DNA from: Omnitrophica bacterium GWA2_41_15
GTDB lineage: Bacteria; Omnitrophota; Gorgyraeia; Gygaellales; Profunditerraquicolaceae
Direction of reading: 5' to 3'
Length of the DNA: 64,000 nucleotides
Assembly (NCBI GenBank): GCA_919901915.1
Contig: CAKKQB010000013.1
Location: 64,192 to 128,191 of the forward strand
Numbering within the stretch: the first letter of the stretch is position 1; each line of letters starts with the position of its first letter. Below, one piece after another: positions 1 to 41,865 of this stretch. Under the pieces are notes generated by a model. That model was not told the DNA's origin. It searched no databases and was given only the letters and a program-made list of their open reading frames with translations. The translations under genes were made by a program, and so were the position numbers.

Positions 1-1933
1 CTTTCGCTTTTTCTCTTATCTGCTTGTTCCAGAAAAATCTTTTTTTGCTTAAAAGAGTTAGGTAAGGAGAGGCCTCTTTGAAACAAACTTCTTCTATAAG
101 AGACATGTTCTCTAAAAGCGCGTTATTTTCCTTAACAGAAAAAAGCAATTCAACCGCCTCTTTTCTTGCCCCCTCACTTTTAGACAAAGCTTCTAACGCC
201 TGCCTCTTCAACAAAGGTGTACCTTTCTCTAAGGAAAGAATCGTAAATTTTTCATCAATCGCGCTTAATTTCTGCATCGCCTTCAATACTTCTATCTTTA
301 TAAACTCATTAGAAAACGAAAAAATATTCTTAAGCGCTTCTATGGCCAAGGCCAAATCAACTGTTTTCAAGCCATCTATAATCCCTAGCATAAATCCTAC
401 ATCAGTATTCTTTTTCTCTAAATTCCCATAAAAAATGTCCTTATGCCCGGGAAAAAACTTAAAAAATAATTTCAAGGCATAAGCGCTAACCTTACCTTCA
501 TTAAATATTTTATCCAGATAAAATTCAACCCCCATAGAGGATTTTTCCAGGGTATCCGCGAAATACTCCAAGTCAGAAGACAGTGGTTCGGCCTCCCCTT
601 GCCGAAGCCGCAAGTCAGAGGACAGTGGTTCGGCCGGCTCCCAAAACAGATTTTCTATTATTTTTGTAACGCGCGTATCCAAGACATCAAGAAAACGGCT
701 TAAATACGGTTTTTGTTTTCTTCCGTCTTTCAAAGCGCCACACAGATATTTAAGATATTGATAATCCTTTACCTTAACTATCTCGGGGAGCTCTTGAGAA
801 ATTTTTTCTATAATCTGCTCGGCCTTTTCAGAGTTTTCCTCTTGCGCGAACATACTCAACAAAATCAAACGGTAATTTTTTTGCAAAATTCCACGGTCAA
901 AAGAAAAAGCTCCCCCGGAAGAAATATCATTAAGCATAGCGCTAATCCTGCCGCGATAAACCTCTGAATCAAGAGAGGCATTGGGTTGGGCCAATAATTC
1001 CTGTATCTTTTTTATTGCTTTAGGATTCTGTTTTAAAGAATCTTTATTGAATGAATCTGTTAAAAAAAGTGAAGCGATGCCCTCCTGCATTTTTTCATCC
1101 GTGAAACGGGAAAATAACTCCAAACTTAAATTATCAAAATTTTCATCTTTTAATATTCCGCTCCAAAGCGCTCCCGCGAAGTCCTCTTCGCTCAAATGTC
1201 TAAAGAATACCTTAATTTTATCTATATTTTCTCCCCCTAAAACATCTTTATGCCTTAAAACTGACCTGAACATCGCGCTAATACAGGTTCTAAATCTTTC
1301 CTGATCATGTTTTTTAAGATAATCTAAAAAGGCCGTCACGCTCTGCCTTAGCTCTTCGTCATTAAGTAAATCATCCGCCTTAAACCTTAGAGCTATCTTT
1401 TCAAAATTATCCGCGAACACGCTTACCTTCTCTGAATCGCCCGAGCCTATTGCCTGAGCGACTAAATATTCCCATACATCCCTAATTTCTTCTCCCTCAT
1501 CTTTTAAAAATTGCGAATAATCCAACTCTTCAATAGATACATGCGCGATATTCTCCTTTTTTAGAATGCCCCCAAGGCCGCCTTGTTTAAAAACTTCTCG
1601 AACAGGTAAAGCTAAGCCGGCAAGAAAATATCTCAATTCCTCAACCGTAGCGCCTTGTTCTATCTGAATACTTCTCAATTTACGACGGTGAAAAATCATG
1701 GCTAATTCAACGCAAAACCCCATTTTCTGCCAATACCTTGAGTCCAAAAACAAAGAATTGGGAGTAACGCCTATTTTTATCGGGTTTAAAAAACCAAACA
1801 CCAAATCAGCGTTTTTTTTAAATTTTTCCACGGAATCTATAAAATAGGGGTGTGTTCCAGAATAAGAGGAGGCATTGTTTATAGCTATACGCAGGCTTTT
1901 AAGAAAATCATTTAAGACTTCTTCTTTATTCAT
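1..1933 (-). CDS. hypothetical protein, partial (C-terminus lies beyond window start); helical HEAT-like repeats in distal part
   Basis: Absent from ORF track because no stop falls in the window. Manual translation from ATG 1933..1931 (MNKEEVLNDFLKSLRIAINNASSYSGTHPYFIDSVEKF...) stays open for 644 codons to base 2. Only short low-complexity + ORFs oppose it. Confidence 0.6.
   Translation of the reverse strand, partial: MNKEEVLNDFLKSLRIAINNASSYSGTHPYFIDSVEKFKKNADLVFGFLNPIKIGVTPNSLFLDSRYWQKMGFCVELAMIFHRRKLRSIQIEQGATVEELRYFLAGLALPVREVFKQGGLGGILKKENIAHVSIEELDYSQFLKDEGEEIRDVWEYLVAQAIGSGDSEKVSVFADNFEKIALRFKADDLLNDEELRQSVTAFLDYLKKHDQERFRTCISAMFRSVLRHKDVLGGENIDKIKVFFRHLSEEDFAGALWSGILKDENFDNLSLELFSRFTDEKMQEGIASLFLTDSFNKDSLKQNPKAIKKIQELLAQPNASLDSEVYRGRISAMLNDISSGGAFSFDRGILQKNYRLILLSMFAQEENSEKAEQIIEKISQELPEIVKVKDYQYLKYLCGALKDGRKQKPYLSRFLDVLDTRVTKIIENLFWEPAEPLSSDLRLRQGEAEPLSSDLEYFADTLEKSSMGVEFYLDKIFNEGKVSAYALKLFFKFFPGHKDIFYGNLEKKNTDVGFMLGIIDGLKTVDLALAIEALKNIFSFSNEFIKIEVLKAMQKLSAIDEKFTILSLEKGTPLLKRQALEALSKSEGARKEAVELLFSVKENNALLENMSLIEEVCFKEASPYLTLLSKKRFFWNKQIREKAK
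570..635. repeat. intragenic palindromic element (E-type), two half-sites AAGTCAGARGACAGTGGTTCGGCC flanking TTGCCGAAGCCGC
   Basis: Direct 24-nt repeat at 570-593 and 612-635, in frame (AEPLSSDL twice). Its reverse complement closely matches 9768-9810, and the same modules recur more loosely at 35597-35658. Confidence 0.8.
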
Positions 1934-2066
1934 CGTACATTAGCAACTTGAACCCGGATTTTGCAATAGAAACGACATTCGCCGGCAAATCGGTTTCGGC
2001 TATAGGAAGCCGAACCATAGCCTTGTGGCTAAAAGAGCGCATCTTCATCATTTTAACAGGAACCGG

Positions 2067-2109
2067 AATAAGTGTAGAAACGAGGCACTGCCTCGTCTCT
2101 ACACTTATT
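2067..2109. repeat. GC-rich palindromic hairpin (GTAGAGACG type)
   Basis: aataagtgtagaaacgaggca / c / tgcctcgtctctacacttatt, 21-nt arms with 1 mismatch. Related cores at 10019-10046 and 22869-22897. Confidence 0.8.
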
Positions 2110-2145
2110 TCTGGCGCACCCTTCACATTATTTACAAAAGAACCA

Positions 2146-2376
2146 TTATTTTTGGGCTTTAATTTTCTCGATATTTATATCTTTACCTCTTAAATACTCA
2201 AAGGCCTTAGCTACTTCCTCTTCATCTCCCTCTAAGCCAAGTATAGCCCAACCGGAATACATAGAGAATGACGCCTCAAATATATTCAAGTTAATATTAA
2301 AACTTTTACACAAATAACAAATTATAGACTCATCCTTTAAATTGCCGGGAAAGGTTAACCCAATCAATACTTTCAT
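2146..2376 (-). CDS. small NIL/ACT-like domain protein
   Basis: 76 aa. The pattern LTFPGNLKDESIICYLCKSFNINLNIFEASF...GWAILGLEGDEEEV resembles NIL-domain proteins. RBS GGAG lies in gattacggagatttttagATG. Confidence 0.5.
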   Translation of the reverse strand: MKVLIGLTFPGNLKDESIICYLCKSFNINLNIFEASFSMYSGWAILGLEGDEEEVAKAFEYLRGKDINIEKIKAQK

Positions 2377-2401
2377 CTAAAAATCTCCGTAATCGATTCC
2401 A

Positions 2402-4114
2402 CTAAGCCTCCTCTGTTACCCGCAATACTTCATCTGGCGTCGTAGAGCCATTCTTGATTTTCTCTATGCCATCTTCGTATATGGTACGCGAACCTAAGAT
2501 TATCGCCTTTTTCTGAATTTCACGGCCAGGCATTTTAGCAACAACCATACTCTTAAGTTCATCATTCATCACCAGAAACTCAAAAATACCGATACGGCCA
2601 AAATATCCAGTATTCTTACAATTCTGACAGCCCTTTCCGCGATAAAATTCACCCTTATAATCTAATTTTAAATCACGCAACATCTCGTCAGAAGGCATAT
2701 AGCTTTCCTTACATTTAGGACAAATTACCCGCACTAACCTCTGCGCTAATATTCCAGTAACAGAAGTGGCAATTAAAAATGGCTCAATGCCCATATCCAA
2801 GAGCCGGGTCAGAGAACTAACGGCATCATTGGTATGCAGTGTAGAAAGCACTAAGTGCCCTGTTAAAGATGCCTGGATAGCAATCTCGGCAGTCTCTTTG
2901 TCGCGAATTTCACCTACCATTATTATATCCGGGTCCTGGCGCAAAATATTACGCAACCCATTAGCAAAAGTCAGGCCCGCAAGGGGATTAACCTGCGTTT
3001 GACGAATAAGAGGAACATCATATTCTACGGGATCCTCAATGGTAATGATATTTTTTTCTATGCTATTTATTACAGATAAGGCGGCGTAGAGGGTCGTGGT
3101 CTTACCTGAGCCAGTCGGCCCGGTAACTAAAATTATTCCATTGGGCCTTGTGATTAACTTTTCAAAGCCCTTTAGGTCTTTATCGGAAAAACCCAATTGG
3201 CTTAAACCTAAAATCACGTTGGATTTATCCAAAATTCTTAAAACTATATTTTCTCCGTTAATCGTAGGAAAAGAAGAAACCCTTAAATCAAGATTCTTGT
3301 TTTCCATCTTAATCTGAATCCGGCCATCTTGGGGCCTGCGCGTCTCAGCTATATCCATTCTCGCCATCACCTTAACACGCGAAACAAAAGCGCCCTGAAG
3401 GTATTTGGGAAGCTGCTGGGCCTCATGCAAAATTCCGTCAATGCGATAACGAATAAGTATCTTGCCTTGGGCTGGTTCAATATGGATATCGCTGGCGCGG
3501 TCTTTAACTGCCTGCATAATAATTAAATTTACTAATTTTATAACCGGCGCCTCCTCGGTAATATCAACTAATCCCTCGGGAACAAGCTTCTCTGCGCCTG
3601 TTGAAAAAGGAGACAAACCTTTAGGGCCTTTCGCCTGAACAGATAATTTTTCTTCGGTTAAATCTTCTATTAATTTTTTGACATCCCCTGCTGCCCCATA
3701 ATACTGGTCAATCATTTTTTCGATTGCCCCGGGTGAAGCCAGCATCGGCTCAATTACGTCTATACCGCTACTTTTTCTTATTTCATCTAACACCATAATG
3801 TTATGAGGATCTGCCATTGCCACTGTAAGAGAATTACCGATTTTAAATAAAGGCATGGCCTTGAATCTTTTTGCCATTGCCTCCGGAATAAATTTTATTA
3901 TCGCGGAATCAATCAAATAATCCGCCAAATCTATAAATGGAACACCTATTGAACCAGCCCATGCCTTCAAAATATCCACTTCGGAAATAAATCCCAGGCG
4001 TTCCAGGGCCTTCTCTAAAAGAAGACCTGTTTTTGCCGCCTCTTCCTGACCCTGGACAAGCTGCTCTCGCGTAATTATGCCTTCCTGAATAAGAAAATCA
4101 ACGCTTGCGCTCAT
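2402..4114 (-). CDS. pilB: type IV pilus assembly ATPase PilB (GspE family)
   Basis: 570 aa. N-terminal T2SSE_N-like domain, Walker A GPTGSGKTTT, Asp/His boxes, C-terminal CxxC...CxxC zinc motif (CPKCK...CQNCKNTG). RBS AAGGAG before the ATG. Confidence 0.92.
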   Translation of the reverse strand: MSASVDFLIQEGIITREQLVQGQEEAAKTGLLLEKALERLGFISEVDILKAWAGSIGVPFIDLADYLIDSAIIKFIPEAMAKRFKAMPLFKIGNSLTVAMADPHNIMVLDEIRKSSGIDVIEPMLASPGAIEKMIDQYYGAAGDVKKLIEDLTEEKLSVQAKGPKGLSPFSTGAEKLVPEGLVDITEEAPVIKLVNLIIMQAVKDRASDIHIEPAQGKILIRYRIDGILHEAQQLPKYLQGAFVSRVKVMARMDIAETRRPQDGRIQIKMENKNLDLRVSSFPTINGENIVLRILDKSNVILGLSQLGFSDKDLKGFEKLITRPNGIILVTGPTGSGKTTTLYAALSVINSIEKNIITIEDPVEYDVPLIRQTQVNPLAGLTFANGLRNILRQDPDIIMVGEIRDKETAEIAIQASLTGHLVLSTLHTNDAVSSLTRLLDMGIEPFLIATSVTGILAQRLVRVICPKCKESYMPSDEMLRDLKLDYKGEFYRGKGCQNCKNTGYFGRIGIFEFLVMNDELKSMVVAKMPGREIQKKAIILGSRTIYEDGIEKIKNGSTTPDEVLRVTEEA

Positions 4115-4132
4115 AACTGATACTCCTTCATT

Positions 4133-6085
4133 TTAAAGACGCGAACGTACAAATTTTGAGATAATTTTTTTATCTTTAGTTTTTAAATTTATAAATTCAA
4201 GGCCCAGCTTATATTCTTTAACGCCAATTCCCGGTGCCTCTTCTATATATTTTATCCAGGCCACATCCGCCATAACACAAAAAGGCTTTACTTTAGGAAA
4301 TTTCAATTTAACCTGTATCCGGCTGTCTGTTTCTATCTTTCTCTTAGCTATAAAACAAATTCCGCCTTCAGAGATATCAATAGTTTGAGAAGATTCTATC
4401 TCTTCCCCGGGCAATAAAATCTCAATATCCGCTTTATAAAAAATCCTGCGAAAACGCCTCTTTTCTAAGCCAACGCGTATCTTCTTAATATTGATACTGC
4501 TTATAAGCCGCGAAGCAGGAAGAGATTGAGATTTAGAATCATACGGCAATACTCCTAAATTTATAAAAACATTCTCTAAATTCTGTGCCGCGAAATATTT
4601 TCTTATTCTATTCTTGAGTAAATCGCAAAATTTTACGGCCACCTCTTCTCCTGCCTTTAAAAGCAGGATACCAATTTCTCCTTCTTTATAATTCTCTAAG
4701 CATACCCGCGGGGAACAGGCAGATATATCCCCCGCGCCTAATTTCTCAAATGTTTCCTCAAAAAATACCTTTAAATTACCAAGTAACCCTATGGAGTCAA
4801 TATTGAATTCTTTCTGGAATTGCGCGTAATTAACAATCAGCAAATTAACCAAATAAACAGGCAGGCTTTCTTCCGCTAAATTATTAATCTTATCCCTGAT
4901 ATCCTTGCTTAATATTTTATCCGTATAAAATCTGGGCAGGGTAAAATAAAATTTACTGCCCACGCCCAATTCAGATTCAACCCAAATCTCTCCACCGTGT
5001 TTTTCTATCAATTCTTTCGTGATAAAAAGCCCCAACCCGACTCCTTTTCTCTTTACTTGAGATTCACTGGCAAGCTGAATAAACTTATTAAATATTTTAG
5101 GTAAATCTTGTTTGGCTATCCCAATACCCGTGTCCATAACAACTACTCTAACCTTATCCTCCAAAATTCTGACTTCAATCCTAATCTTTCCGTTTTGTTC
5201 GGTAAACTTTATAGCGTTATTAACTAAGTTCGCGATAACCTGATTTATTCTTCCGGCATCTATAAATATATTTATTTCTTGGCCCTGAGGCAAATCATAC
5301 TCCAAACCTACGCCCTTTTGCTCTGCCAATTTTTTAAAAAACGCGAAAGAATCCATTAGTAAATCGCTAAGATTAACTAACGAATAACGCATTTTAATCT
5401 TACCTCTTTCAAATCTAGAAATATCAAGCAGTTCTTCTATTATATCATTTAGGCGCGCTATATTATTTTTTGCCTTCGTAAGTATTTCTTTCTGCTTAGA
5501 AATTAATGGGCCCGCAACCTCATCGATAAGAAGCATTACCGCGTCTTTAATAATCGCTAGTGGTGTCCTAATCTCATGAGAAACAACAGAAACAAATTCA
5601 GACTTCATTCTATTTAATTCTTCCAATCCTTCTATTTTTTTGCAAATCAACGCCTTTTCTTCTCTCAAGCGCTCAAATTGCATGCGCTGGGTAATATCCC
5701 TGGTAATACCAATAAGGCCGACAATCTTACCTTTATTGTCGTATCTGGGTATCTTGGTTGTTGACGCGTAATTATCAACGCCGTCTACCCGTGTAGCCCT
5801 TTCAATTTTATCAATTATAGGCTTACCGGTCGTCATAACATGCAAATCATCCTTAGCCATTTCCCGCGCCCGTTCCCGGGGAAAAATATCAAAATCCGTT
5901 TTCCCAACTACCTCTTCGGGCTTAAGGCCCAAGCCCTTAGCATGGGTCTGATTAACCATAATCAGCCTCCCCCGGGTATCTTTAAAGTAAATAACATCCG
6001 GCACCATATCCATAAGATCGGAAAGAAGTTTATACTTATTCTCTAACTCTTTATATTTCTTTTGTAACTCTTTAAAATTATTCAT
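4133..6085 (-). CDS. sensor histidine kinase: PAS - HisKA - HATPase_c - degenerate GGDEF-like region - PilZ
   Basis: 650 aa. H-box SHEIRTPL; G-boxes DTGIGI and GVGLGL; C-terminal PilZ motifs RRFRR and DISEGG. The intervening about 130 aa are GGDEF-like, with KEGEIG in place of GGDEF. Confidence 0.85.
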   Translation of the reverse strand: MNNFKELQKKYKELENKYKLLSDLMDMVPDVIYFKDTRGRLIMVNQTHAKGLGLKPEEVVGKTDFDIFPRERAREMAKDDLHVMTTGKPIIDKIERATRVDGVDNYASTTKIPRYDNKGKIVGLIGITRDITQRMQFERLREEKALICKKIEGLEELNRMKSEFVSVVSHEIRTPLAIIKDAVMLLIDEVAGPLISKQKEILTKAKNNIARLNDIIEELLDISRFERGKIKMRYSLVNLSDLLMDSFAFFKKLAEQKGVGLEYDLPQGQEINIFIDAGRINQVIANLVNNAIKFTEQNGKIRIEVRILEDKVRVVVMDTGIGIAKQDLPKIFNKFIQLASESQVKRKGVGLGLFITKELIEKHGGEIWVESELGVGSKFYFTLPRFYTDKILSKDIRDKINNLAEESLPVYLVNLLIVNYAQFQKEFNIDSIGLLGNLKVFFEETFEKLGAGDISACSPRVCLENYKEGEIGILLLKAGEEVAVKFCDLLKNRIRKYFAAQNLENVFINLGVLPYDSKSQSLPASRLISSINIKKIRVGLEKRRFRRIFYKADIEILLPGEEIESSQTIDISEGGICFIAKRKIETDSRIQVKLKFPKVKPFCVMADVAWIKYIEEAPGIGVKEYKLGLEFINLKTKDKKIISKFVRSRL

Positions 6086-6122
6086 AAAAAAGATTTTTCC
6101 GTAAATAGGGACTGCCCGACTG

Positions 6123-6215
6123 GACCCCGGCTTCCGCCGGGGTGACGAGCTAACATTGTCATTCCCTCGGTCAGCCTCATTACCATCGTCGTCATTCCGG
6201 CGAAAGCCGGAATCC
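6123..6215. repeat. cluster of GC-rich capped hairpins (GACCCCGGCTTCCGCCGGGGTGAC and GTCATTCCGGCGAAAGCCGGAATCC)
   Basis: Hairpins at 6123-6146 and 6191-6215. The same two modules recur together at 56161-56218. Confidence 0.8.
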
Positions 6216-6298
6216 AGAAAGAAATCTTGTCCACCTCGTAGGCGCGCGCTTATCTTTACTCGTATTCACCTACCAGGTGGACTCTGGTTCCCTAAATG

Positions 6299-6670
6299 CT
6301 AACCAAGTAACTGGCGAATCTTCTCTAATAACACGTGGGCATCAAAAGGTTTAGTAATATAAACGTCGGCGCGCACATCTTTAGCTATTTCTTTATCAGA
6401 TTCATCAGCGCGCGCGGTAAAAATAATAATTGGAATATTTTTATATTTCTCGTCAAACTTTAGCAACCGGCATACTTTATAACCGTCCATTTTAGGAAGC
6501 ATTAAATCTAATATAATAAGGTCTGGATTCTCTTTTTTCGCTTTCTCTAAACCCTCCAGGCCATCCCCCGCGGAAATAACCTCATAATCATTAGCCTCTA
6601 ACCGCAGGCTGACAGTTTCAACCAAATCACTCTCATCTTCAATAATCAATATTCTCTTTTTACTCATCAC
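6299..6670 (-). CDS. stand-alone response regulator receiver (CheY-like)
   Basis: 123 aa. Acidic pocket IIEDE, phospho-acceptor in LIILDLMLP, conserved T (FTA) and K (TKPF). Confidence 0.9.
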   Translation of the reverse strand: MMSKKRILIIEDESDLVETVSLRLEANDYEVISAGDGLEGLEKAKKENPDLIILDLMLPKMDGYKVCRLLKFDEKYKNIPIIIFTARADESDKEIAKDVRADVYITKPFDAHVLLEKIRQLLG

Positions 6671-6691
6671 ACGATACCTCCCTTAAAAATT

Positions 6692-6768
6692 TGGTGACGG
6701 CGGGTGGATTTGGACCACCGACTTAACGGGTATGAGCCGTTTGCTCTACCAGACTGAGCTACGCCGCC
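6692..6768 (-). tRNA. tRNA with CAU anticodon (elongator Met, or Ile2 if lysidine-modified)
   Basis: 77 nt: GGCGGCG TA GCTC AGTCTGGTA GAGC A AACGG CTCATAC CCGTT AAGTC GGTGG TCCAAAT CCACC CGCCGTC A CCA. The cloverleaf folds by hand and CCA is encoded. The anticodon stem lacks the three G-C pairs of an initiator. Confidence 0.85.
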
Positions 6769-6775
6769 TTAATCC

Positions 6776-7264
6776 TTACTGTTCCAAGATAAGTTCAATA
6801 TTTCTAGAGCCGTTATTCAAAATAACCCTGTCAAGCTTTATATCAACTACAGTATGGACGCCAATCTTATCTCCCACTTTTACAATATTATCATTTATTA
6901 TCGCCAAAGAAGCTTTTTTATCACAAATTATACCCATAAGTTTTAAGCCAATTATTTCTTCGTCGCAAAAATAAGTCTTACCGCTAAAAGGGCATCTTCC
7001 CTGAACATGTCCTTTGTCCGGCGGCGATTGCCTCGCGGTCCGTGGCTCCTCCGAGAAGCGGGTAAAACTAGGAACCTGCTTGTCTAACGGGTTAATTATC
7101 GCGGATACACCAGGATTTGTTCCGTTAAGAGGTTCTTTTCTCATGGAAGGAACGGCATTGGTCAAGGACCTTTTCTTAATCACCTTTAGGGTATTTCCCC
7201 AGGCAAAAATAAAAACCAGAATTAACACTCCTGTAATAATTATTTTTACGCGTTCCTTATCCAT
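6776..7264 (-). CDS. membrane-anchored PilP/GspC-like pilus assembly protein (putative)
   Basis: 162 aa. N-terminal TM segment, proline-rich linker, C-terminal beta-domain pattern LKLMGII...ASLAIINDNIVKVGDKIGVHTVVDIKLDRVIL. Positioned after pilO. Confidence 0.4.
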   Translation of the reverse strand: MDKERVKIIITGVLILVFIFAWGNTLKVIKKRSLTNAVPSMRKEPLNGTNPGVSAIINPLDKQVPSFTRFSEEPRTARQSPPDKGHVQGRCPFSGKTYFCDEEIIGLKLMGIICDKKASLAIINDNIVKVGDKIGVHTVVDIKLDRVILNNGSRNIELILEQ

Positions 7265-7284
7265 ATTGTCACAAAAAGAGTATT

Positions 7285-7429
7285 ATAGTTTCCACTGAAA
7301 AAGTGGAAACTATATGATTACAACGATTAAAAAATAGATTACAGTGATTAATGTCCGACGAGAAAAAATCTCCGTAATCTTTTTAAAATCTCCGTAATCA
7401 AGTTACTGCTGGGTTTTTCAGCAGTAACT
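7285..7429. repeat. intergenic region with two perfect hairpins and duplicated SD-like 15-mer
   Basis: Hairpins tatagtttccac/gtggaaactata (7285-7314) and agttactgctg/cagcagtaact (7401-7429). AAAATCTCCGTAATC occurs at 7365-7379 and 7385-7399, and again at 2380-2394. Confidence 0.7.
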
Positions 7430-7430
7430 A

Positions 7431-7991
7431 TTATGGAACCTTTTTAAACAAATAAACAGAAATTTGCAAAACAGCTTCTAAACAAATTTGACCTTCCCCC
7501 GCGCCCTGAATCTTAAGCTCTCTTATCCTTACAAGAAACACGGGATTATTCCTTAAAATATCTAAATATCTATTTATGGCTATAAATTCACCTGCCAAAT
7601 TAAAAGTTATAGGCAACTCTTCTATATCATAACCCGAAACAGGAGTTTCTATTGGGCGCCTGCTCGAACTGCTAAGATTTTTAATTTCGATATTTAAATT
7701 CTTTGCTGTCTCGGATAGATTATTTATTACTATTTCTTCCTTATTAAGCAGTTGGCTTTCAATTTTATTCAGTTGCGCTCCCATACCATTTAATGCTTCC
7801 CCTACATCCTTGCCCTGAAGAATACCTTTTATTTCTAAAATCTGGCTATCAGCATCCTTCAATTGATTCTTTATCAAAGCAAACCTCCGTATCTGGGGAG
7901 AATAAACAAACTGCCAGAACAAAAACAAAAACACCGCCGCGGCTACAGCAAAATAAATAATTTTCCTCTGTTCTTTGTTTAACACTATCAT
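7431..7991 (-). CDS. pilO: type IV pilus assembly protein PilO-like
   Basis: 186 aa. One N-terminal TM segment, a coiled coil, a C-terminal alpha/beta domain. Positioned after the pilM-pilN fusion. Confidence 0.6.
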   Translation of the reverse strand: MIVLNKEQRKIIYFAVAAAVFLFLFWQFVYSPQIRRFALIKNQLKDADSQILEIKGILQGKDVGEALNGMGAQLNKIESQLLNKEEIVINNLSETAKNLNIEIKNLSSSSRRPIETPVSGYDIEELPITFNLAGEFIAINRYLDILRNNPVFLVRIRELKIQGAGEGQICLEAVLQISVYLFKKVP

Positions 7992-8024
7992 AGCAATATT
8001 AATTTAACACGAATTCTCATGGGG

Positions 8025-8197
8025 CTGTTGCGAAATGCCATTTTTCGTCATTCCGGCGAAAACCGGAATCCAGAACTCTTTGATTTTAATAGACTTATGG
8101 ATACCGGCGACCGAGGGCGAAATGACCGAGGAAGTGTCGGAGCCTAACTGGGCTCGACCTTTCGCCAATATGACGATTTTAATGTATTTTGCAACAG
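8025..8197. mobile_element. MITE-like element, copy 1 (173 bp, inverted ends CTGTTGCGAAAT...ATTTTGCAACAG)
   Basis: Near-identical to 51992-52164 along its full length. It has an internal GTCATTCCGGCGAAAACCGGAATCC hairpin. The + ORF 8035..8259 (MPFFVIPAKTGIQ...) is its translation. Confidence 0.75.
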
Positions 8198-8207
8198 CCC
8201 CCTCATG

Positions 8208-8255
8208 GATTTATCCGTGTTTATCCGTGTTCTTTTATCCGTGTCAATCCGTGTT
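8208..8255. repeat. B-type array: four TATCCGTGT motifs
   Basis: ggatttatccgtgtttatccgtgttcttttatccgtgtcaatccgtgtt lies directly 3' of the pilM-pilN stop. Same unit order as 14690-14736. Confidence 0.85.
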
Positions 8256-15815: not shown

Positions 15816-16057
15816 TATTTTTTCTTATAAAGTGCTGCTAACTCTAGCGGATACCTCGCGTTAACAATATGATAATATTCCACAGCCATACGTATATTCA
15901 TTAGTTCATCTTTCAAAGCTGTTTTTCTGGCTGCGGCTAAGGTAATATTAACATATACCACGAAACTGCCAATCAATACAAATATCAGACAAATAACCGC
16001 CAAAAACTCAATAAGCGTAAATCCCATTAGGGCTTTTTTATCAGAATAATTTTTCAT
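15812..16057 (-). CDS. short pilin-like protein with canonical prepilin cleavage site
   Basis: 81 aa, MKNYSDKKALMG|FTLIEFLAVICLIFVLIG. Confidence 0.7.
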   Translation of the reverse strand: MKNYSDKKALMGFTLIEFLAVICLIFVLIGSFVVYVNITLAAARKTALKDELMNIRMAVEYYHIVNARYPLELAALYKKKY

Positions 16058-16071
16058 TTTTCATTTTCTAA

Positions 16072-17286
16072 CTACCCCGGCCTAAACAATTTAATCAAAT
16101 TCCACATCGGCAGGAATATAGCCAAAGCCATAATTAAAACCATAATCCCTAAAACAAAAATTAATATAGGCTCAATATAAGTAGTCAAATTCCTGATCAT
16201 ATAAGCTGTTTCCCTGTCATAATAATCCGCCACATTTATAAGCAATTCGCCCATCCTGCCTGTTTGTTCTCCGGTTGAGACCATCTGAACTACAACAATA
16301 GGAAACAAATTGCTTACCTTCATCGGTTCAGACATACCCTTGCCCTGGTTAACATTTTCCTTGATATGCCCGATTGCCCGCGCGACAATAATATTTCCGG
16401 ACGTGTTTGCCGTTAAATCCAACACCTCTAAAATAGACACGCCGCTTTCCATTAATATGGCGGTAACACGCGCGAAACGCGACATAATAAGCAAGGTTAT
16501 CAACGGCCCCAAAACCGGAATCTTTAATTTAAGATTATCAAAAATAGGCCTGCCTATTTTTGAATTAATGAAACTCCTTAAACCAAAAATACCTGCTCCT
16601 GTCAACAAAATAAATAAATACCAAAATTTCTTGATACTAATACTAAGGGCGATTAAAATCCTTGTCGGAAGAGGCAATAACGTATTAAACTGGCTGTAAA
16701 TAACCGCAAAACGCGGAATGACAAAGGTAATCACAATAAGAAAAGCTACACATAAAGCAGAAAATGCCAACATCGGATAACGCGTGGCCGCGTTTATGCG
16801 GCTGGAAGTATCAATCTCCTGCTCTAATAACCCCGAGAGCCTTTCCAAAACACCCACTATATTACCGCTGGTCTCCGCGACCTTAATCATCGCGACGTAG
16901 ATACCATTAAAAATTTGGGATTGCTCTTTTAAGCTATCAGAGAAACTTAAGCCTCCTTTAATATTGAGGGCAATTTTTTCAATAACAGATTTAAAATATC
17001 TATTTTTTGTTTGTTGTGCCAGCGTCTCTAAGTTTGATAACAAAGGAAGCCCCGCCTTTTGCATAGAATAAAGCTGGCGCGTAAAAACATCCAACTCTTG
17101 AAGCCCCACGCGCTTAAACCGCTTAAGAATCTTTCCAACGCCCAAATCACGCGCTTCAATAATGGATATGGGAATATAGCCCATATCCGCCAGTTCTTTC
17201 GCGGCAAAATCGCTGGTTTCAGCGACAATCGTGCCTATAGCAAGCTTAGAAAATTTATCACGCGCCTTATATTTAAAATTAGCCAT
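16072..17286 (-). CDS. pilC: type IV pilus platform protein PilC (GspF family)
   Basis: Two T2SSF repeats and three TM segments. Start preferred at ATG 17286 ([10 protein letters not shown]), which overlaps the carB stop by 8 nt. The track start at 17331 is GTG. Confidence 0.9.
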
Positions 17287-18916
17287 ACGTAGAATAATAA
17301 TAAGGTGTAGCGGCATGGAACTCCGCGGCACAGGTATCTACAAGTTTATACACGGGAAAAATATTAAATGATTCGCGTAATTTATACATGTCTTCTTCAT
17401 TTTTACCTAGTAAACGACTCAACTGCCTATCGCTAAAACCAAATTCCTTCGCTTGAGTAAGGAGCTCTTTTGTAATATTATTCTTGTTTTTTATAATCTC
17501 TTTCTCTAAATCAATTATTTCTTTTATATTTGCCAAAAACCAACGGTCAATCTTGGTTAATTCATTAATTTTTTCTATATCCACCCCTATCCTTAAGGCA
17601 TCGCCAATATAAAAGATCCTTTCAGCGTTAGGTATTCTTAACTTTTGCTCAATCTTTTCCCACGCGCCATTATCCAATTCGCCTAAACTTTCTAAACCAT
17701 ACTTTTTAATCTCCAGAGAACGCAGGCCCTTCTGCAAAGCCTCCTTAAAAGTCCTCCCTATCGCCATTACCTCACCAACGGACTTCATAGAAACTGTAAG
17801 CGTGGGATCAGCGGATGGAAATTTTTCAAAAGTAAAGCGGGGAATTTTTACCACGCAATAATCTATTGCCGGTTCAAAACAAGCGGGCGTTTCTTTGGTA
17901 ATATCATTAGGGATCTCATCTAAGGTATAACCCACGGCTAACTTCGCGGCAATTTTCGCGATGGGAAAACCAGTCGCCTTAGACGCCAGAGCAGAGCTTC
18001 TTGAAACCCTTGGATTCATCTCAATAATAACCATGCGCCCGGTTTCAGGATTAATCGCGAATTGAATATTAGAGCCTCCTGTACTAACGCCTATCTCTCT
18101 TATGCAGGCAATTGAGGCGTCGCGCATTTTTTGATATTCTTTATCAGTTAACGTTTGAATAGGCGCGACAGTAATACTATCTCCTGTATGTACGCCCATC
18201 GGATCAAAATTTTCAATGGAACAAACTATTACCACATTATCCATTGAATCCCGCATTACCTCTAATTCAAACTCCTTCCAGCCAATTACCGATTCCTCAA
18301 TAAGAATTTCGCTGTTCATGCTGGACTCAAGGCCATACTTTGCCAAATCCTTAAATTCTTCTATATTATAAGCAACACTTCCGCCTGTTCCGCCTAATGT
18401 AAAACTCGGCCGAATAATCACCGGAAAACCTATCTCTTTAACCGCCTCTATGGCCTCATTTAAATTATAGGCCTTTTTACTTTTAGGCAGGTCCAGGCCA
18501 ATTTTTTGCATCGCCTTTTTAAAAAGCTGCCTGTCTTCGCCTTTTTTGATTGCCTTTATATCTACGCCAATGGTTTCTACCTTATATTTTTTAAGGATTC
18601 CTTTTTCCGCTAAATCTATAGATATATTTAAAGCGGTCTGCCCTCCCAATGTAGGCAATAACGCGTCCGGCCTTTCTCTGGCGATAATCTTTTCTATGAC
18701 CTCTACGGTCATTGGCTCAATATATGTCGCGTCTGCCATTTGAGGGTCGGTCATAATAGTAGCAGGATTTGAATTTATTAAAACTACTTTATAACCTTCC
18801 TGCCTTAAAACCTTGCAGGCTTGAGTTCCGGAATAATCAAATTCACAACCCTGGCTGATAATAATCGGGCCTGAACCAATAATTAGAATCTTCTTTATGT
18901 CAGTACGTTTAGGCAT
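17279..18916 (-). CDS. carB: carbamoyl-phosphate synthase large subunit, N-terminal half only (split CarB)
   Basis: Start at [18 protein letters not shown]. The first ATP-grasp domain is present. It ends ...[19 protein letters not shown], exactly where the second half of a full-length (about 1070 aa) CarB begins. Confidence 0.9.
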
Positions 18917-29466: not shown

Positions 29467-31110
29467 TTAGGCCGCCTTCATGATCTTCTTTGCCTTGGCA
29501 TCAGCCGCATCTGTAATAAACGCGATTCCGGTTTCCTTTTCAGTCTCACGGTTGGCAGAGAAAATATCATCCCGGGTAATTGTCTTGAGCGAAAATCTCC
29601 TCGCGCCAGCCATTAACTGCTGAACCCCTGCGGCTAATTTATCCGCCAATGTCCAAACAGCAACCGCGCCATACGGAATATTTTTCATTTCATCCTTGCC
29701 AACCTTTTTCTGCACATCATAGTATCCGGAAAATATCTCATCAACAGTAGCTCCGAATTCAGCAACCGAAGCAGGAAGCTTATCCCAATTGCCACAAACT
29801 TTTTCTTTTACTGCCGGATTCAATGCTCCCTCGATATTCGAGCCCAAAAATCCGGGAATCATCAACGAGCGGCCCATACAAACAAGTTTCGTATACGGAG
29901 CGCCTAAAGCCAACGCCTTAAAAATATGGTCTTCACGGGCTAGACCGCCAGCAAAAGCCATATCCACAACTTTCTTATCTTTTTTAGTAAGCATTTGCGC
30001 GTACTCATAAGCCTTAGCATGCAAAAGAAGAGAAGGAACTCCCCATGCCTCCATCATATTCCACGGGCTCATTCCAGTTCCGCCGCCTGAACCATCAATA
30101 GTAAGCAAGTCTAATTTCGCGTCAGTAGCGTATTTTATAGACATCGCCAAAGCTTCCATTCCGTAAGAACCGGTTTTTAAAGAAATGCGCTTATAACCGA
30201 TTTTACGCAAATATTTAACCGCCTTCATAAAATTTTCTCTCACAGCGTCAGAAGAAGATAGGCTTGTATAACCTAAACGGCTGTGGCGCGCGAATGACTT
30301 AATTGCTTTGTGTTTAAAAGCCTCTTGAACTTCCGGAATCGTAGGATCAGGGTCAACCACATAACCTCTTTTCTTTAAGAAAAGGGCGTAGTCAAGGCTA
30401 TTTACCTGAATTTCTCCACCGATACACTTTGCTCCCTGGCCCCACTTAAGTTCAATAATCGCCTTATCACCATATTTCTCAATCACGTATTCAGCAACGC
30501 CATTACGCGTATCTTCCACATTCATCTGCACGATAATCGCGCCATATCCGTCATAATAACGTAAAAATGTCTCAATCCTTCTATCTAATTCCGGCGCCTT
30601 CAAAATCCTGCCGTCTTTTATTTCCGCTTTCTGATCAATACCAACTACGTTTTCGCCAACTACAATTGGAAAACCTACTAGCGCCGCGCCTACAGCAAAA
30701 GATTCCCAATATTTAGCGGCAATAAATGTTGAGCCTAACGCGCCGGTCATCACAGGAATTTTAAACTTTGTCTTTACTTGCTGCCCAAATTCACCCTCAA
30801 GGCTTACATTCGGAAAAATACAATCATCTTCAGAATTGGATAACCCTTTTGGCAAACCAGTAACTCCGTAATTATATCCATTTATACGCAAAGAATTATA
30901 GCAAACACCCGTATGAGAGGTATTGGAACTGCCTGCTGTAGTAAAACTATAATCCCTGGGGTAGAGCATTTTTCTTCCCTTAAGGCTCGAAAGCCATGTT
31001 TCACATTTTCCCATACAATCAGCCCGGCACAAGGTGCATAAGCCTGATTCCGCGGGATTGCCTCTATTCACACTCCCTAAAGCATCATTTGTCTTTGGCC
31101 ATTGAATCAT
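29467..31110 (-). CDS. FMN-binding glutamate synthase family protein (GltB central-domain homologue) with N-terminal Cys cluster
   Basis: 547 aa. Has CTLCRADCMGKCE, DGSGGGTG and GG...ALALGA, typical of the Glu_synthase domain. Confidence 0.85.
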   Translation of the reverse strand: MIQWPKTNDALGSVNRGNPAESGLCTLCRADCMGKCETWLSSLKGRKMLYPRDYSFTTAGSSNTSHTGVCYNSLRINGYNYGVTGLPKGLSNSEDDCIFPNVSLEGEFGQQVKTKFKIPVMTGALGSTFIAAKYWESFAVGAALVGFPIVVGENVVGIDQKAEIKDGRILKAPELDRRIETFLRYYDGYGAIIVQMNVEDTRNGVAEYVIEKYGDKAIIELKWGQGAKCIGGEIQVNSLDYALFLKKRGYVVDPDPTIPEVQEAFKHKAIKSFARHSRLGYTSLSSSDAVRENFMKAVKYLRKIGYKRISLKTGSYGMEALAMSIKYATDAKLDLLTIDGSGGGTGMSPWNMMEAWGVPSLLLHAKAYEYAQMLTKKDKKVVDMAFAGGLAREDHIFKALALGAPYTKLVCMGRSLMIPGFLGSNIEGALNPAVKEKVCGNWDKLPASVAEFGATVDEIFSGYYDVQKKVGKDEMKNIPYGAVAVWTLADKLAAGVQQLMAGARRFSLKTITRDDIFSANRETEKETGIAFITDAADAKAKKIMKAA

Positions 31111-31291
31111 TTTAATTCTCCTTTTCTATTTGTTACACAATTTCTCTGCCTATAGCTTTGGCTATCGAAAGCCAAAGCTAAAAATTAAAAAGACACCTTA
31201 GAAAGTATTCAGAACGTCTTTGTTCTATACTTCTTTCGAAAAACCCAACCTGCTTCTTTGCAAGTTCCGGCTGTCTTAAATTATTGACAAA

Positions 31292-31319
31292 ATCTTAGCA
31301 CCGAAACAACTTTTGTCAA
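31292..31319 (-). promoter_or_regulatory. sigma70-type promoter (tttttcTTGACA-16-TAAGAT)
   Basis: Minus strand reads TTGACAaaagttgtttcggtgcTAAGAT, about 175 nt upstream of the 31110 start. Confidence 0.5.
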
Positions 31320-31402
31320 GAAAAATAAACACGAATTACCACGAATTTTCACCCCACACCAATACATTAGTAACCCGCTTTGTCGTATCGAGCGCTCTTT
31401 TT

Positions 31403-31468
31403 GGGCGAGCAAGCTCGCCCCTACGAATCGTCGTATACATCGCGTAGGGGTGGGCTTGCCCACCCTAT
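31403..31468. repeat. pair of GC-rich hairpins (GGGCGAGCAAGCTCGCCCCTACGA; GTAGGGGTGGGCTTGCCCACCCTAT)
   Basis: The first is repeated at 33208-33231 with the same T-rich 5' flank. Confidence 0.8.
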
Positions 31469-31527
31469 GTTGATTATTAAATTCGTAACTATGTTCACAA
31501 TAAATACAAAACAACGAAAATTTGCTA

Positions 31528-33186
<1,659 letters not shown>

Positions 33187-33207
33187 TCATCTTATAATTT
33201 CTGTTTT

Positions 33208-33231
33208 GGGCGAGCAAGCTCGCCCCTACGA
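33208..33231. repeat. GC-rich hairpin GGGCGAGCAAGCTCGCCCCTACGA, copy 2
   Basis: Identical to 31403-31426. Confidence 0.85.
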
Positions 33232-33322
33232 AAAATTATCATCGTCCGGTCAAACCCCGGAATCGTACGGGACAGGCATGGCTACCCCCTACACGAGCGA
33301 CAATCCCTATTATAGGATATTT

Positions 33323-39386: not shown

Positions 39387-39389
39387 ATT

Positions 39390-39558: not shown

Positions 39559-39589
39559 ATAAAATACCTCATAGACCTACGAGGCATAT

Positions 39590-41785: not shown

Positions 41786-41803
41786 GTGTTCCTCCTTTTA
41801 ATA

Positions 41804-41840: not shown

Positions 41841-41865
41841 ACCTACCCTTTATAACTAACAATTA

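What the first reader, a model, noticed from the sequence alone, without database searches (positions are those of the whole stretch)
4133..6085. Histidine kinase carrying a C-terminal PilZ domain (and a degenerate GGDEF-like module) wedged between pilB and an orphan receiver
The domain order I read is PAS, HisKA (SHEIRTPL), HATPase_c, about 130 aa resembling an inactive GGDEF fold (KEGEIG replaces GGDEF), then a canonical PilZ (RRFRR ... DISEGG).

That would make phosphotransfer to the adjacent single-domain receiver (6299-6670) directly responsive to c-di-GMP. It sits in the locus that also encodes the pilus extension ATPase.

PilZ proteins and c-di-GMP control of T4P are established (PilZ/FimX, MshE). 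A kinase with a covalently fused PilZ output or input is uncommon, and I cannot assign it to a described system.
Basis: partly seen in the sequence, partly recalled or inferred. Interest (0 to 1): 0.62.

Follow-up and report, generated by a model that had tools for sequence, protein, structure and literature searches.

The report
Pilus-linked histidine kinase with PilZ

Summary
ORF 4133-6085 (minus strand, 650 aa) reads PAS, HisKA, HATPase_c, a degenerate GGDEF-derived domain, then a canonical PilZ.

- **PilZ:** Pfam scores 51 bits against a cut-off of 22.5. The RxxxR and DxSxxG motifs are 97-100% conserved in 121 orthologues.
- **Family size:** the protein is not a one-off. At least 765 sequence clusters share strong full-length similarity. 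The best 120 all have this architecture, and every named one is from Candidatus Omnitrophota.
- **Synteny:** of 21 related loci, 12 carry the orthologous single-domain receiver next to the kinase and 10 also carry PilB, followed where the contig continues by PilC, pilins and PilMN.
- **Likely mechanism (inferred, untested):** c-di-GMP binding at PilZ tunes phosphotransfer to the receiver, which then acts on the pilus motor.
- **Known relatives:** c-di-GMP-sensing kinases are known (CckA, ShkA, SgmT, and HapZ-SagS acting in trans). I found no described kinase with a fused PilZ.

Verdict: a new variant of a known kind, of moderate interest.

The parts
4133..6085 (-). Whole gene: cytoplasmic sensor histidine kinase, 650 aa, PAS-HisKA-HATPase_c-GGDEF*-PilZ
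   Evidence: ORF. Pfam domains. No hydrophobic run longer than 8 aa, so no membrane segment. Full-length AlphaFold model has mean pLDDT 83.
5684..6007 (-). PAS sensor domain (aa 27-134)
   Evidence: Pfam PAS_4, E 4e-18. Most conserved domain of the family: 76% mean identity to the window protein over 120 orthologues.
5402..5608 (-). HisKA / DHp domain (aa 160-228), with phospho-acceptor H170 at window 5576-5578
   Evidence: Pfam HisKA, E 3.5e-15. H170 is present in 121 of 121 sequences. Coordinates verified.
4934..5260 (-). HATPase_c catalytic domain (aa 276-384) with N, G1, F and G2 boxes
   Evidence: Pfam HATPase_c, E 8e-31. The boxes are conserved. PDB sequence matches to HK853-type kinases reach E 2e-43.
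4547..4906 (-). GGDEF-derived, catalytically dead domain (aa 394-513). KEGEI (window 4673-4687) occupies the GG(D/E)EF hairpin. No RxxD I-site. Truncated after beta4.
4502..4543 (-). Predicted disordered linker (aa 515-528) between GGDEF* and PilZ
   Evidence: pLDDT below 50 in the deep-alignment model. Poorly conserved, with indels in orthologues.
4148..4465 (-). Canonical PilZ domain (aa 541-646), with RxxxR (RRFRR, window 4445-4459), DxSxxG (DISEGG, window 4361-4378) and a C-terminal helix
6299..6670 (-). Single-domain response regulator (123 aa), the probable cognate partner
   Evidence: Pfam Response_reg, E 9e-28. E11, D12, D55, T85 and K107 are present. A 57-73% identical orthologue is adjacent to the kinase in 12 of 21 loci.
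2402..4114 (-). PilB/GspE-family extension ATPase, starting 18 bp after the kinase stop codon
   Evidence: Pfam T2SSE, E 1e-140, plus MshEN/N1D. TIGR02538 scores 605 bits and TIGR02533 scores 623 bits, both just under their cut-offs. Adjacent to the kinase-receiver pair in 10 of 21 loci.
6692..6768 (-). tRNA-Met gene, 21 bp upstream of the receiver, separating it from the pilMNOP-like genes
   Evidence: ARAGORN. Rfam tRNA, 64.9 bits.
6776..17331 (-). Rest of the pilus gene cluster upstream: PilC (16072-17331), pilin (14737-15240), TPR membrane protein (12476-13969), three pseudopilin-like genes (10130-12367), PilM-PilN fusion (8256-9980), PilO-like (7431-7991), PilP/GspC-like (6776-7264)
   Evidence: Pfam T2SSF, N_methyl and PilM_2, with weaker PilN, T2SSM and T2SSC matches. 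The same genes follow PilB in relatives.

Best explanation
The gene encodes a soluble, dimeric-type (HisKA) sensor histidine kinase with two inputs. One is an N-terminal PAS domain with an unknown ligand. The other is a C-terminal canonical PilZ domain that binds c-di-GMP.

Between the ATP-binding domain and PilZ sits a relic GGDEF domain. It has lost its catalytic site and its I-site, and it now serves as a structural spacer or lever.

Proposed mechanism:
1. c-di-GMP binds the RxxxR arm and the DxSxxG face of the PilZ barrel.
2. This orders the flexible linker and re-docks the GGDEF*-PilZ unit against the kinase core.
3. The balance between kinase and phosphatase activity shifts, or access of the receiver changes.
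4. The phosphorylation state of the adjacent single-domain receiver follows cellular c-di-GMP as well as the PAS signal.
5. The receiver has no output domain, so it acts by protein-protein contact, most probably on the co-encoded PilB extension ATPase or its platform, switching pilus assembly.

Shown here: the architecture, the intact catalytic and ligand-binding residues, family-wide conservation, and conserved linkage to the receiver and PilB.

Inferred: ligand binding, the direction of the effect on the kinase, and the receiver's target.
For: - **Architecture and motifs:**
- **PilZ ligand-binding residues:** almost invariant in 121 orthologues (R543, S572, G575 100%; R547 99%; D570 D or N), although the PilZ domain as a whole is only 49% identical on average. 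That implies selection on ligand binding.
- **Kinase and receiver look functional:** H170 is 100% conserved and the N, G1, F and G2 boxes are intact. The receiver keeps D12, D55, T85 and K107.
- **GGDEF ancestry with loss of both nucleotide sites:**. More GGDEF-like relatives that also carry PilZ still keep RxxD.
- **Gene linkage:** 18-bp gap between the kinase and pilB. The kinase-receiver-PilB-PilC-pilin order recurs in L008-L010, L013, L014, L016, L018, L019, L021 and L022.
- **c-di-GMP signalling is present in the lineage:** an HD-GYP-type gene lies three genes downstream of pilB on the same contig, and a GGDEF-HD-GYP gene sits near the kinase in L015.
- **The window PilB is unlikely to sense c-di-GMP itself:** it matches the MshEN c-di-GMP motif only below threshold (33.7 against 38 bits), so the signal may enter through the kinase.
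- **Precedents:** c-di-GMP controls the histidine kinases ShkA and CckA (PMC6969517, PMC7010744) and SgmT (PMC3509222). The PilZ adaptor HapZ gates SagS phosphotransfer (10.1101/2020.02.11.943704). Single-domain or PATAN-CheY regulators act on PilB (10.1101/2021.06.11.447907, PMC11181946).
Against: - There is no biochemical evidence of any kind. The organism is known only from metagenomes.
- In 9 of 21 related loci the kinase has neither the receiver nor PilB within about 8 kb, and its neighbours vary. The link to pili is therefore frequent but not obligatory.
- No intact diguanylate cyclase was seen in the 64-kb window, the 95-kb contig segment read, or the other loci. The one GGDEF gene found reads GGATF.
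- The target of the receiver is pure inference.
- A 213-bp gap separates the receiver from the kinase in this window, and gene order differs among relatives (receiver before or after the kinase).
- The structure models are monomeric, so they say nothing about docking in the kinase dimer.
Confidence: 0.55

Rival explanations
1. HapZ-like gating in cis. The fused PilZ does not change autokinase activity. When loaded with c-di-GMP it binds the stand-alone receiver and blocks or promotes phosphotransfer, or holds the receiver on the kinase.
For: The stand-alone PilZ protein HapZ binds the receiver domain of SagS at high c-di-GMP and controls phosphotransfer (10.1101/2020.02.11.943704, read). Here the kinase and receiver are conserved neighbours. 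The PilZ has the charged C-terminal helix (aa 636-649) that the PilZ survey names as a protein-interaction element (10.1101/814665).
Against: No interaction data exist. This rival overlaps largely with the best explanation and differs only in which step is regulated. The window PilZ was not compared with HapZ.
Confidence: 0.15
2. The PilZ acts as a docking or localisation module. It tethers the kinase to PilB or the pilus platform, or sequesters it in clusters in a c-di-GMP-dependent way. Spatial control, not allostery, sets the output.
For: In Xanthomonas and Pseudomonas a PilZ protein binds the PilB N-terminal domain (PMC8389850 listed; PMC11656802). In SgmT, c-di-GMP binding to the C-terminal GGDEF domain sequesters the kinase spatially rather than changing its activity (PMC3509222). 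pilB starts 18 bp after the kinase gene.
Against: The PilB-binding PilZ proteins of those systems are the non-c-di-GMP-binding type, which has lost the motifs. Here the motifs are strictly conserved. Nine of 21 loci lack an adjacent PilB.
Confidence: 0.12
3. The two-component pair regulates something other than pili, for example another c-di-GMP-dependent process reached through a diffusible receiver. Its position at the head of the pilus operon would be historical linkage without functional coupling.
For: Nine orphan loci have unrelated neighbours. In L020 the receiver is retained next to the kinase but PilB is not. In the window a tRNA gene and a 213-bp gap break the cluster.
Against: The kinase-receiver-PilB adjacency persists in lineages whose kinases are only 54-77% identical to the window protein in the N-terminal half, and it survives inversion of the kinase/receiver order. 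That is hard to explain without selection. In a rough tree the linked state is found on both sides of the root.
Confidence: 0.1
4. The PilZ domain does not bind c-di-GMP in these organisms. It binds a different nucleotide or nothing, and serves only as a structural or interaction domain.
For: No intact diguanylate cyclase was found in the sequence examined. Some PilZ domains are known to have lost binding (10.1101/814665).
Against: PilZ domains that lost binding also lost the RxxxR and DxSxxG motifs. Here those motifs are 97-100% conserved. The PilZ survey notes that PilZ domains in fusion proteins retain c-di-GMP binding. HD-GYP-type genes are present in the lineage. Only a small part of each genome was examined.
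Confidence: 0.06

Closest known systems
SgmT/DigR of Myxococcus xanthus (histidine kinase with a C-terminal c-di-GMP-binding GGDEF domain; PMC3509222)
   Same: A histidine kinase with a C-terminal, catalytically inactive GGDEF domain used for c-di-GMP input, alongside an N-terminal primary sensor domain. It is tied to type IV pilus-dependent behaviour.
   Different: SgmT is a hybrid kinase with an in-line receiver, and it binds c-di-GMP at the GGDEF I-site (RxxD). The window protein has no in-line receiver, has lost RxxD and carries a PilZ instead. SgmT's partner DigR binds DNA, whereas here the partner is a receiver-only protein.
HapZ-SagS of Pseudomonas aeruginosa (PilZ adaptor controlling a kinase's phosphotransfer; described in 10.1101/2020.02.11.943704)
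   Same: [quoted passage not shown]
   Different: HapZ is a separate single-domain protein acting in trans on the receiver domain of a hybrid kinase. Here the PilZ is covalently fused to the kinase behind a GGDEF relic, and the receiver is a separate protein.
ShkA and CckA of Caulobacter crescentus (c-di-GMP-regulated histidine kinases; PMC6969517, PMC7010744)
   Same: c-di-GMP directly binds the kinase polypeptide and switches its output. In ShkA, binding to a degenerate internal domain releases an autoinhibited state, which is a plausible analogue of the mechanism proposed here.
   Different: The binding sites are a pseudo-receiver domain (ShkA) or the catalytic ATP-binding domain (CckA; from my own knowledge), not a PilZ. 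Neither is encoded with pilus genes.
Two-domain PilZ receptors (YcgR, MotI/DgrA, PP4397, PlzA)
   Different: In those proteins the N-terminal partner domain is PilZ-like (PilZN or xPilZ) and the proteins are stand-alone effectors. Here the partner domain is a GGDEF relic and the whole unit is appended to a kinase.
PilZ-FimX-PilB and MshE/MshEN control of pilus extension ATPases (PMC8389850, PMC5595344, PMC11656802)
   Same: c-di-GMP input to the type IV pilus extension motor, with a PilZ-family protein encoded with or acting on PilB.
   Different: Those systems act by direct protein or ligand binding to PilB, without phosphorylation. The PilB-binding PilZ there does not bind c-di-GMP. The window PilB matches the MshEN c-di-GMP motif only below threshold.
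Single-domain or PATAN-CheY regulators of pilus motors (PilG/PilH of Pil-Chp; PixG/PixH/PixE of Synechocystis; PMC10519157, PMC11181946, 10.1101/2021.06.11.447907)
   Same: Receiver proteins without a DNA-binding output control type IV pilus extension by protein contact, in cyanobacteria directly with PilB.
   Different: Those receivers are fed by CheA-type kinases of chemosensory arrays, not by a HisKA-type kinase with a PilZ. No c-di-GMP input at the kinase is known for them.

Membership tests
[quoted passage not shown] | Match to the family profile above the curated threshold | tested here: met
   51 bits against a gathering score of 22.5, E 2e-13, profile positions 1-100 of 102. All 30 and all 120 relatives examined also match.
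[quoted passage not shown] | RxxxR motif on the N-terminal arm | tested here: met
   R543-R-F-R-R547. R543 is in 121 of 121 sequences and R547 in 120 of 121.
[quoted passage not shown] | (D/N)xSxxG motif in the barrel | tested here: met
   D570-I-S572-E-G-G575. Position 570 is D in 117 and N in 4 sequences. S572 and G575 are in 121 of 121.
[quoted passage not shown] | Six-stranded beta-barrel followed by a C-terminal helix | tested here: met
[quoted passage not shown] | Actual binding of c-di-GMP | not testable with these tools
   Requires a binding assay on purified protein.
HisKA-type (class I) sensor histidine kinase | H-box with phospho-acceptor histidine; N, G1, F and G2 boxes of the ATP-binding domain | tested here: met
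   HisKA and HATPase_c are above threshold. H170 is invariant and the boxes are conserved. PDB sequence matches to HK853-type kinases reach E 2e-43.
HisKA-type (class I) sensor histidine kinase | Autophosphorylation and transfer to a cognate receiver | not testable with these tools
   Only conserved adjacency of a receiver with intact D12, D55, T85 and K107 can be shown.
GGDEF domain / diguanylate cyclase, PF00990 | Match of the protein itself to the family profile | tested here: not met
   aa 386-543 scanned alone give no Pfam family at E<=10.
GGDEF domain / diguanylate cyclase, PF00990 | Homology to GGDEF domains (common ancestry and fold) | tested here: met
GGDEF domain / diguanylate cyclase, PF00990 | GG(D/E)EF active-site hairpin, and metal-binding Asp in beta1 | tested here: not met
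   KEGEI stands at the hairpin. Beta1 reads LVNLLIVNY, with no Asp. No family member has GG(D/E)EF. The protein is therefore not a cyclase.
GGDEF I-site c-di-GMP receptors (SgmT type) | RxxD motif five residues upstream of the GGDEF position | tested here: not met
   The window reads SPRVCLENY-KEGEI, with an insertion. RxxD is retained only in distant PilZ-bearing relatives (RRATD, RRNAD, HRTSD) and in PilZ-less relatives.
Hybrid histidine kinase | Receiver domain fused after the ATP-binding domain | tested here: not met
   There is no Response_reg match in the protein. The region after HATPase_c is GGDEF-derived.
MshEN-type c-di-GMP-binding extension ATPase (the neighbouring PilB) | Tandem 24-residue RLGxx(L/V/I)(L/V/I)xxG(L/V/I)(L/V/I)xxxxLxxxLxxQ motifs | tested here: inconclusive
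   The NCBIfam c-di-GMP motif model scores 33.7 bits against a cut-off of 38. By eye, motif 1 lacks RLG and the terminal L..Q (sequence). The Pfam MshEN hit (aa 57-143) covers the general N1 domain, not the motif.
Type IVa pilus assembly ATPase PilB (the neighbouring gene) | Equivalog-level match | tested here: inconclusive
   TIGR02538 PilB scores 605 against a cut-off of 676. TIGR02533 GspE scores 623 against 630. The context (PilM_2, PilC, pilins) favours a type IV pilus-like system.

The most novel reading that the evidence does not exclude
Omnitrophota use a dedicated three-gene module (PAS-kinase-GGDEF*-PilZ, a receiver-only protein and PilB) in which c-di-GMP is read by a PilZ fused to a histidine kinase and converted into a phosphorylation signal. 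That signal directly switches the pilus extension motor.

This would be a previously undescribed route from c-di-GMP to type IV pili, and the first kinase regulated through a covalently attached PilZ. In evolutionary terms, the PilZ would have taken over c-di-GMP sensing from the I-site of an ancestral kinase-GGDEF receptor. Relatives that still carry both RxxD and PilZ would be the intermediates.
Probability: 0.35. Interest if true: 0.65.

Novelty: new variant of a known kind. Interest (0 to 1): 0.5.

Why it matters
c-di-GMP and two-component phosphorylation are the two main bacterial signalling currencies. Only a few direct junctions between them are understood: CckA, ShkA, SgmT and HapZ-SagS. 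A kinase with a built-in PilZ would be the simplest such junction, and it is easy to test in vitro because the protein is soluble and has a single, obvious partner.

The module is conserved across Omnitrophota, an uncultured and environmentally widespread phylum, and it sits at the head of the pilus operon. It therefore gives a concrete handle on how these organisms regulate pili.

The series from kinase-GGDEF with RxxD, through kinase-GGDEF with RxxD plus PilZ, to kinase-dead GGDEF plus PilZ also illustrates how one ligand-sensing site can be replaced by another within a single protein lineage.

Tried and rejected
- **Direct Pfam scan of the middle region:** no hit. Homology had to be established through relatives and profiles.
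- **Word-indexed homologue searches with the C-terminal part, alone or as an alignment:** only 4 and 7 hits, mostly fragments. This gave a misleading impression of rarity, which the exhaustive HMMER search and the full-length search corrected.
- **The search for related loci with the diverse alignment A5:** failed because no stretch was conserved enough. The closer alignment A2 worked.
- **A c-di-GMP riboswitch or other RNA element in the 213-bp receiver-kinase gap:** Rfam finds only the tRNA.
- **Promoter and terminator scans of 1800-7400:** not informative. Terminator-like sites are at the level expected from shuffles and promoter-like sites only modestly above it.
- **REC-GGDEF cyclases next to orphan kinases in L003 and L011:** rejected. 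By eye, the L003 protein looks REC-CBS-like and the L011 protein is REC plus an unrecognised region. Neither has a GGDEF motif or matches my GGDEF profile.
- **Regex HD...GYP hits in L002, L013 and L014:** false positives. L002 is an ornithine/arginine decarboxylase-type protein, L013 has no Pfam family, and L014 is an antisense ORF inside pilB. Only the L001 and L015 proteins are HD-GYP-type.
- **Orphan and pilus-linked kinases as separate paralogue clades:** a rough neighbour-joining tree does not separate them.
- **Foldseek against the AlphaFold database:** not available.
Full report
**1. The observation**

Pfam assigns four domains:
- PAS_4 at aa 27-134
- HisKA at aa 160-228
- HATPase_c at aa 276-384
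- PilZ at aa 541-646 (E 2e-13; 51 bits against a gathering score of 22.5)

The quoted strings are real. SHEIRTPL contains H170, RRFRR is aa 543-547 and DISEGG is aa 570-575. The kinase core is an ordinary HK853-type core by comparison with solved structures (E 2e-43). The protein has no hydrophobic stretch longer than 8 residues, so it is cytoplasmic.

**2. The middle domain**

Residues 386-543 give no Pfam family when scanned alone, even at E<=10.

- A first AlphaFold model from a 5-sequence alignment (pLDDT 61) showed a beta-alpha-alpha-beta-beta-alpha-beta core with KEGE on the beta2-beta3 hairpin.
- A second model from 121 sequences (mean pLDDT 83; 77-90 in this region) confirmed alpha0-beta1-alpha1-alpha2-beta2-beta3-alpha3-beta4 at aa 394-513. 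A disordered linker follows (aa 515-528), then the PilZ barrel and its C-terminal helix (aa 636-649).
- An exhaustive profile search of 1.84 billion representative proteins found kinases carrying the same C-terminal unit, and kinases carrying only the middle domain. Eleven of 30 of the former hit Pfam GGDEF at that position (best family-wide E 2.9e-14). All 22 of the latter do too.
- A profile built only from those recognised GGDEF domains hits the window protein at about aa 390-515 with E 4e-7.
- hhalign of the 121-orthologue middle-domain alignment against the same domains gives 98.4% probability, E 7e-15, over 119 columns.

The domain is dead as an enzyme. KEGEI aligns with GG(D/E)EF, the beta1 strand (LVNLLIVNY) has no metal-binding Asp, and no family member has GG(D/E)EF. 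It has also lost the RxxD I-site. That site survives in the PilZ-less relatives (consensus LRRxxD) and in more GGDEF-like PilZ-bearing relatives (RRATD, RRNAD, HRTSD).

The KEGEIG string is not itself conserved. This is the least conserved domain of the protein, at 33% mean identity to the window sequence.

**3. How common is it?**

Searches with the divergent C-terminus in the word-indexed database found only 4-7 proteins, which suggested rarity. That impression was wrong.
- The full-length search found 765 clusters at E<=1e-60. The best 120 are all 622-687 aa, 52-69% identical, and annotated PAS + HisKA + HATPase_c + PilZ.
- Every source name among them is Candidatus Omnitrophota or Omnitrophica. 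The product names are generic, such as "ATP-binding protein" or "PAS domain-containing protein".
- A scan of one genome per species returned 14 loci. All are Omnitrophota, or MAGs labelled Planctomycetia.
- The window itself comes from a 95-kb metagenome contig, ENA ERZ1292638.
- More distant kinase-GGDEF*-PilZ proteins of 515-900 aa with other N-terminal sensors exist. One is from a Spirochaetales MAG (MBN1410896.1) and one from Omnitrophota (MDP3921641.1).

**4. Conservation**

Counts are over 121 aligned sequences.

| Residue | Conservation |
|---|---|
| H170 | 121 of 121 |
| R543 | 121 of 121 |
| R547 | 120 of 121 |
| D570 | D in 117, N in 4 |
| S572 | 121 of 121 |
| G575 | 121 of 121 |

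| Domain | Mean identity to the window protein |
|---|---|
| PAS | 76% |
| HATPase_c | 69% |
| HisKA | 64% |
| PilZ | 49% |
| GGDEF* | 33% |

Both the kinase catalytic residues and the c-di-GMP-contacting residues are therefore under strong purifying selection, while the GGDEF relic drifts. The unusually conserved PAS domain implies a common primary signal, which remains unknown.

**5. Context**

In the window, the following genes all lie on the minus strand:
- PilC, pilins, a TPR membrane protein and three pseudopilin-like genes
- a PilM-PilN fusion, a PilO-like gene and a PilP/GspC-like gene
- tRNA-Met, then 21 bp
- the receiver, then 213 bp
- the kinase, then 18 bp
- PilB, then 25 bp
- a 76-aa NIL-domain protein

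The receiver has all the phospho-acceptor pocket residues: E11, D12, D55, T85 and K107.

Across 21 other loci the picture is as follows:
- An orthologous receiver (57-73% identical) is adjacent to the kinase in 12.
- PilB is also adjacent in 10: L008-L010, L013, L014, L016, L018, L019, L021 and L022. L017 is truncated at that point. Where the contig continues, PilC, pilins and PilMN follow.
- Gene order varies. The receiver precedes the kinase in the window, L016, L017 and L018, and follows it in the others.
- Nine loci have the kinase in unrelated neighbourhoods.
- A rough tree does not split linked and orphan kinases into two clades.

So the kinase, receiver and PilB form a frequently conserved module, but not an obligatory one.

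**6. c-di-GMP in this lineage**

- Just outside the window, three genes downstream of pilB on the same contig, lies a 449-aa HD_5/HD protein with HD and GYP motifs. It is a candidate c-di-GMP phosphodiesterase.
- In L015 a GGDEF-HD-GYP protein lies about 4.7 kb from the kinase. Its GGDEF reads GGATF and has an intact RxxD.
- I found no intact diguanylate cyclase in the window or any locus held. Only a small fraction of each genome was available.
- The window PilB matches the NCBIfam MshE-related c-di-GMP motif model below threshold (33.7 against 38 bits). By eye it lacks the RLG start and the terminal L..Q of the published motif (motif as summarised in PMC11656802). PilB itself may therefore not sense c-di-GMP here.

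**7. Mechanism**

*Shown:* an intact HisKA kinase; a conserved partner receiver without an output domain; a canonical PilZ with invariant ligand-binding residues, placed after a flexible linker; a dead GGDEF spacer; and linkage to PilB.

*Inferred:*
- c-di-GMP binds the RxxxR arm and the barrel.
- This orders the linker and re-docks the GGDEF*-PilZ unit on the kinase core. Two-domain PilZ receptors close around the ligand in this way, and ShkA is released from autoinhibition by c-di-GMP (PMC6969517).
- Re-docking changes kinase/phosphatase balance or receiver access.
- The receiver then acts by contact on PilB or its platform. CheY-like and PATAN-CheY regulators do this in other bacteria (PMC11181946, 10.1101/2021.06.11.447907, PMC10519157).

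*Variants I cannot exclude:*
- HapZ-like gating of the receiver by the PilZ (10.1101/2020.02.11.943704)
- docking to PilB, or spatial sequestration as in SgmT (PMC3509222)
- an output unrelated to pili
- a PilZ that does not bind c-di-GMP

The direction of regulation is unknown.

**8. Comparison with what is known, and novelty**

c-di-GMP-responsive histidine kinases are established (CckA, ShkA, SgmT). So is a PilZ adaptor acting on a kinase in trans (HapZ-SagS). Published lists of PilZ fusions mention REC, GGDEF, EAL, HD-GYP, MCP, CheC and the Ser/Thr kinase Pkn1 (10.1101/814665).

I did not find a histidine kinase-PilZ fusion described in those surveys, in a large-scale PilZ classification, in full-text searches, or in the 2024 review of PilB cofactors. 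The proteins are in public databases under generic names.

I therefore rate this a new variant of a known kind. It is not categorically new, and the gene itself is not rare.

**9. Verdict**

The architecture is right, the functional claim is plausible but untested, and "orphan receiver" and "uncommon" need correction.
- Interest is 0.5. This is a clean, testable junction between c-di-GMP and two-component signalling, conserved phylum-wide at the head of a pilus operon in an uncultured lineage. It is built entirely from known parts, and no experiments exist yet.

Noticed in passing
L001 16231-17580 (same contig, just beyond the window's left edge; three genes downstream of pilB): A 449-aa HD_5/HD protein with HD (aa 246) and GYP (aa 309) motifs, a candidate HD-GYP c-di-GMP phosphodiesterase. 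It is encoded in the same orientation as the kinase-PilB genes. It is not conserved next to the module in the other loci.
   Followed up: partly
window 2402-4114 (PilB), residues 6-51: The PilB N-terminus matches the NCBIfam MshE-related c-di-GMP-binding motif model just below threshold (33.7 against 38 bits). By eye it lacks the RLG start and the terminal L..Q of the published motif, so whether this PilB binds c-di-GMP itself is open.
   Followed up: partly
window 6692-6768 (-): A tRNA-Met (CAT) gene sits inside the pilus cluster, between the PilP/GspC-like gene and the receiver, only 21 bp upstream of the receiver's start codon. The relatives examined do not show the same arrangement of pilMNOP genes upstream of the receiver.
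   Followed up: no
window 1-1935 (-), complete copy at L001 14153-16108: A 651-aa protein between the NIL gene and the HD-GYP gene has no Pfam family (scanned at E<=0.001) and no tblastn match in any of the 21 other loci.
   Followed up: partly
window 2146-2376 (-): A stand-alone 76-aa NIL-domain protein starts 25 bp after pilB. The NIL domain is otherwise the C-terminal regulatory domain of MetN-type ABC ATPases. It is not seen next to PilB in the other loci.
   Followed up: no
window 8256-9980 (-): PilM and PilN are fused in one 574-aa protein with an ~85-aa N-terminal extension. The same PilM_2 + PilN fusion is called in L016 and L018, so it may be typical of this lineage.
   Followed up: no
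whole window 1-64000: 39 of the 40 ORFs of at least 150 aa are on the minus strand. The one plus-strand ORF (52883-53422) lies inside a minus-strand gene. GC skew is negative throughout the 14 kb profiled. The strand bias extends over at least 64 kb.
   Followed up: no
L001 1631-1963 (corresponds to window about 14123-14455, -): A PemK-family toxin gene (110 aa), preceded by a 64-aa ORF, sits between the pilin genes and the TPR membrane protein gene, inside the pilus cluster.
   Followed up: no
L015 299-1537 (-): An Omnitrophota GGDEF-HD-GYP fusion protein (412 aa) lies about 4.7 kb from an 'orphan' kinase-PilZ gene. Its GGDEF signature reads GGATF with an intact RxxD I-site, so it looks like a c-di-GMP-sensing phosphodiesterase rather than a cyclase.
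   Followed up: partly
window 5684-6007 (-), PAS domain of the kinase: The PAS domain is the most conserved part of the family (76% mean identity, with many invariant residues such as D30, Y33, F34, K35, N45, K62, D64, D79 and D80). This suggests a specific shared ligand or cofactor, which I did not identify.
   Followed up: no
window 29467-47642 (-): A nitrogen-assimilation block: glutamate synthase large subunit, two pyridine-nucleotide oxidoreductase/4Fe-4S proteins of the glutamate synthase small-subunit type, type III glutamine synthetase, an ammonium transporter, CTP synthase and an aminotransferase. A GAF-ANTAR RNA-binding regulator (45741-46478) is embedded in it.
   Followed up: no
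L008 6031-6750 and 8779-9144; L021 5146-5517 and 7934-8302: Some relatives carry two or three single-domain receiver genes around the kinase-PilZ gene. This hints at branched phosphotransfer, for example antagonistic receivers as in PilG/PilH.
   Followed up: no
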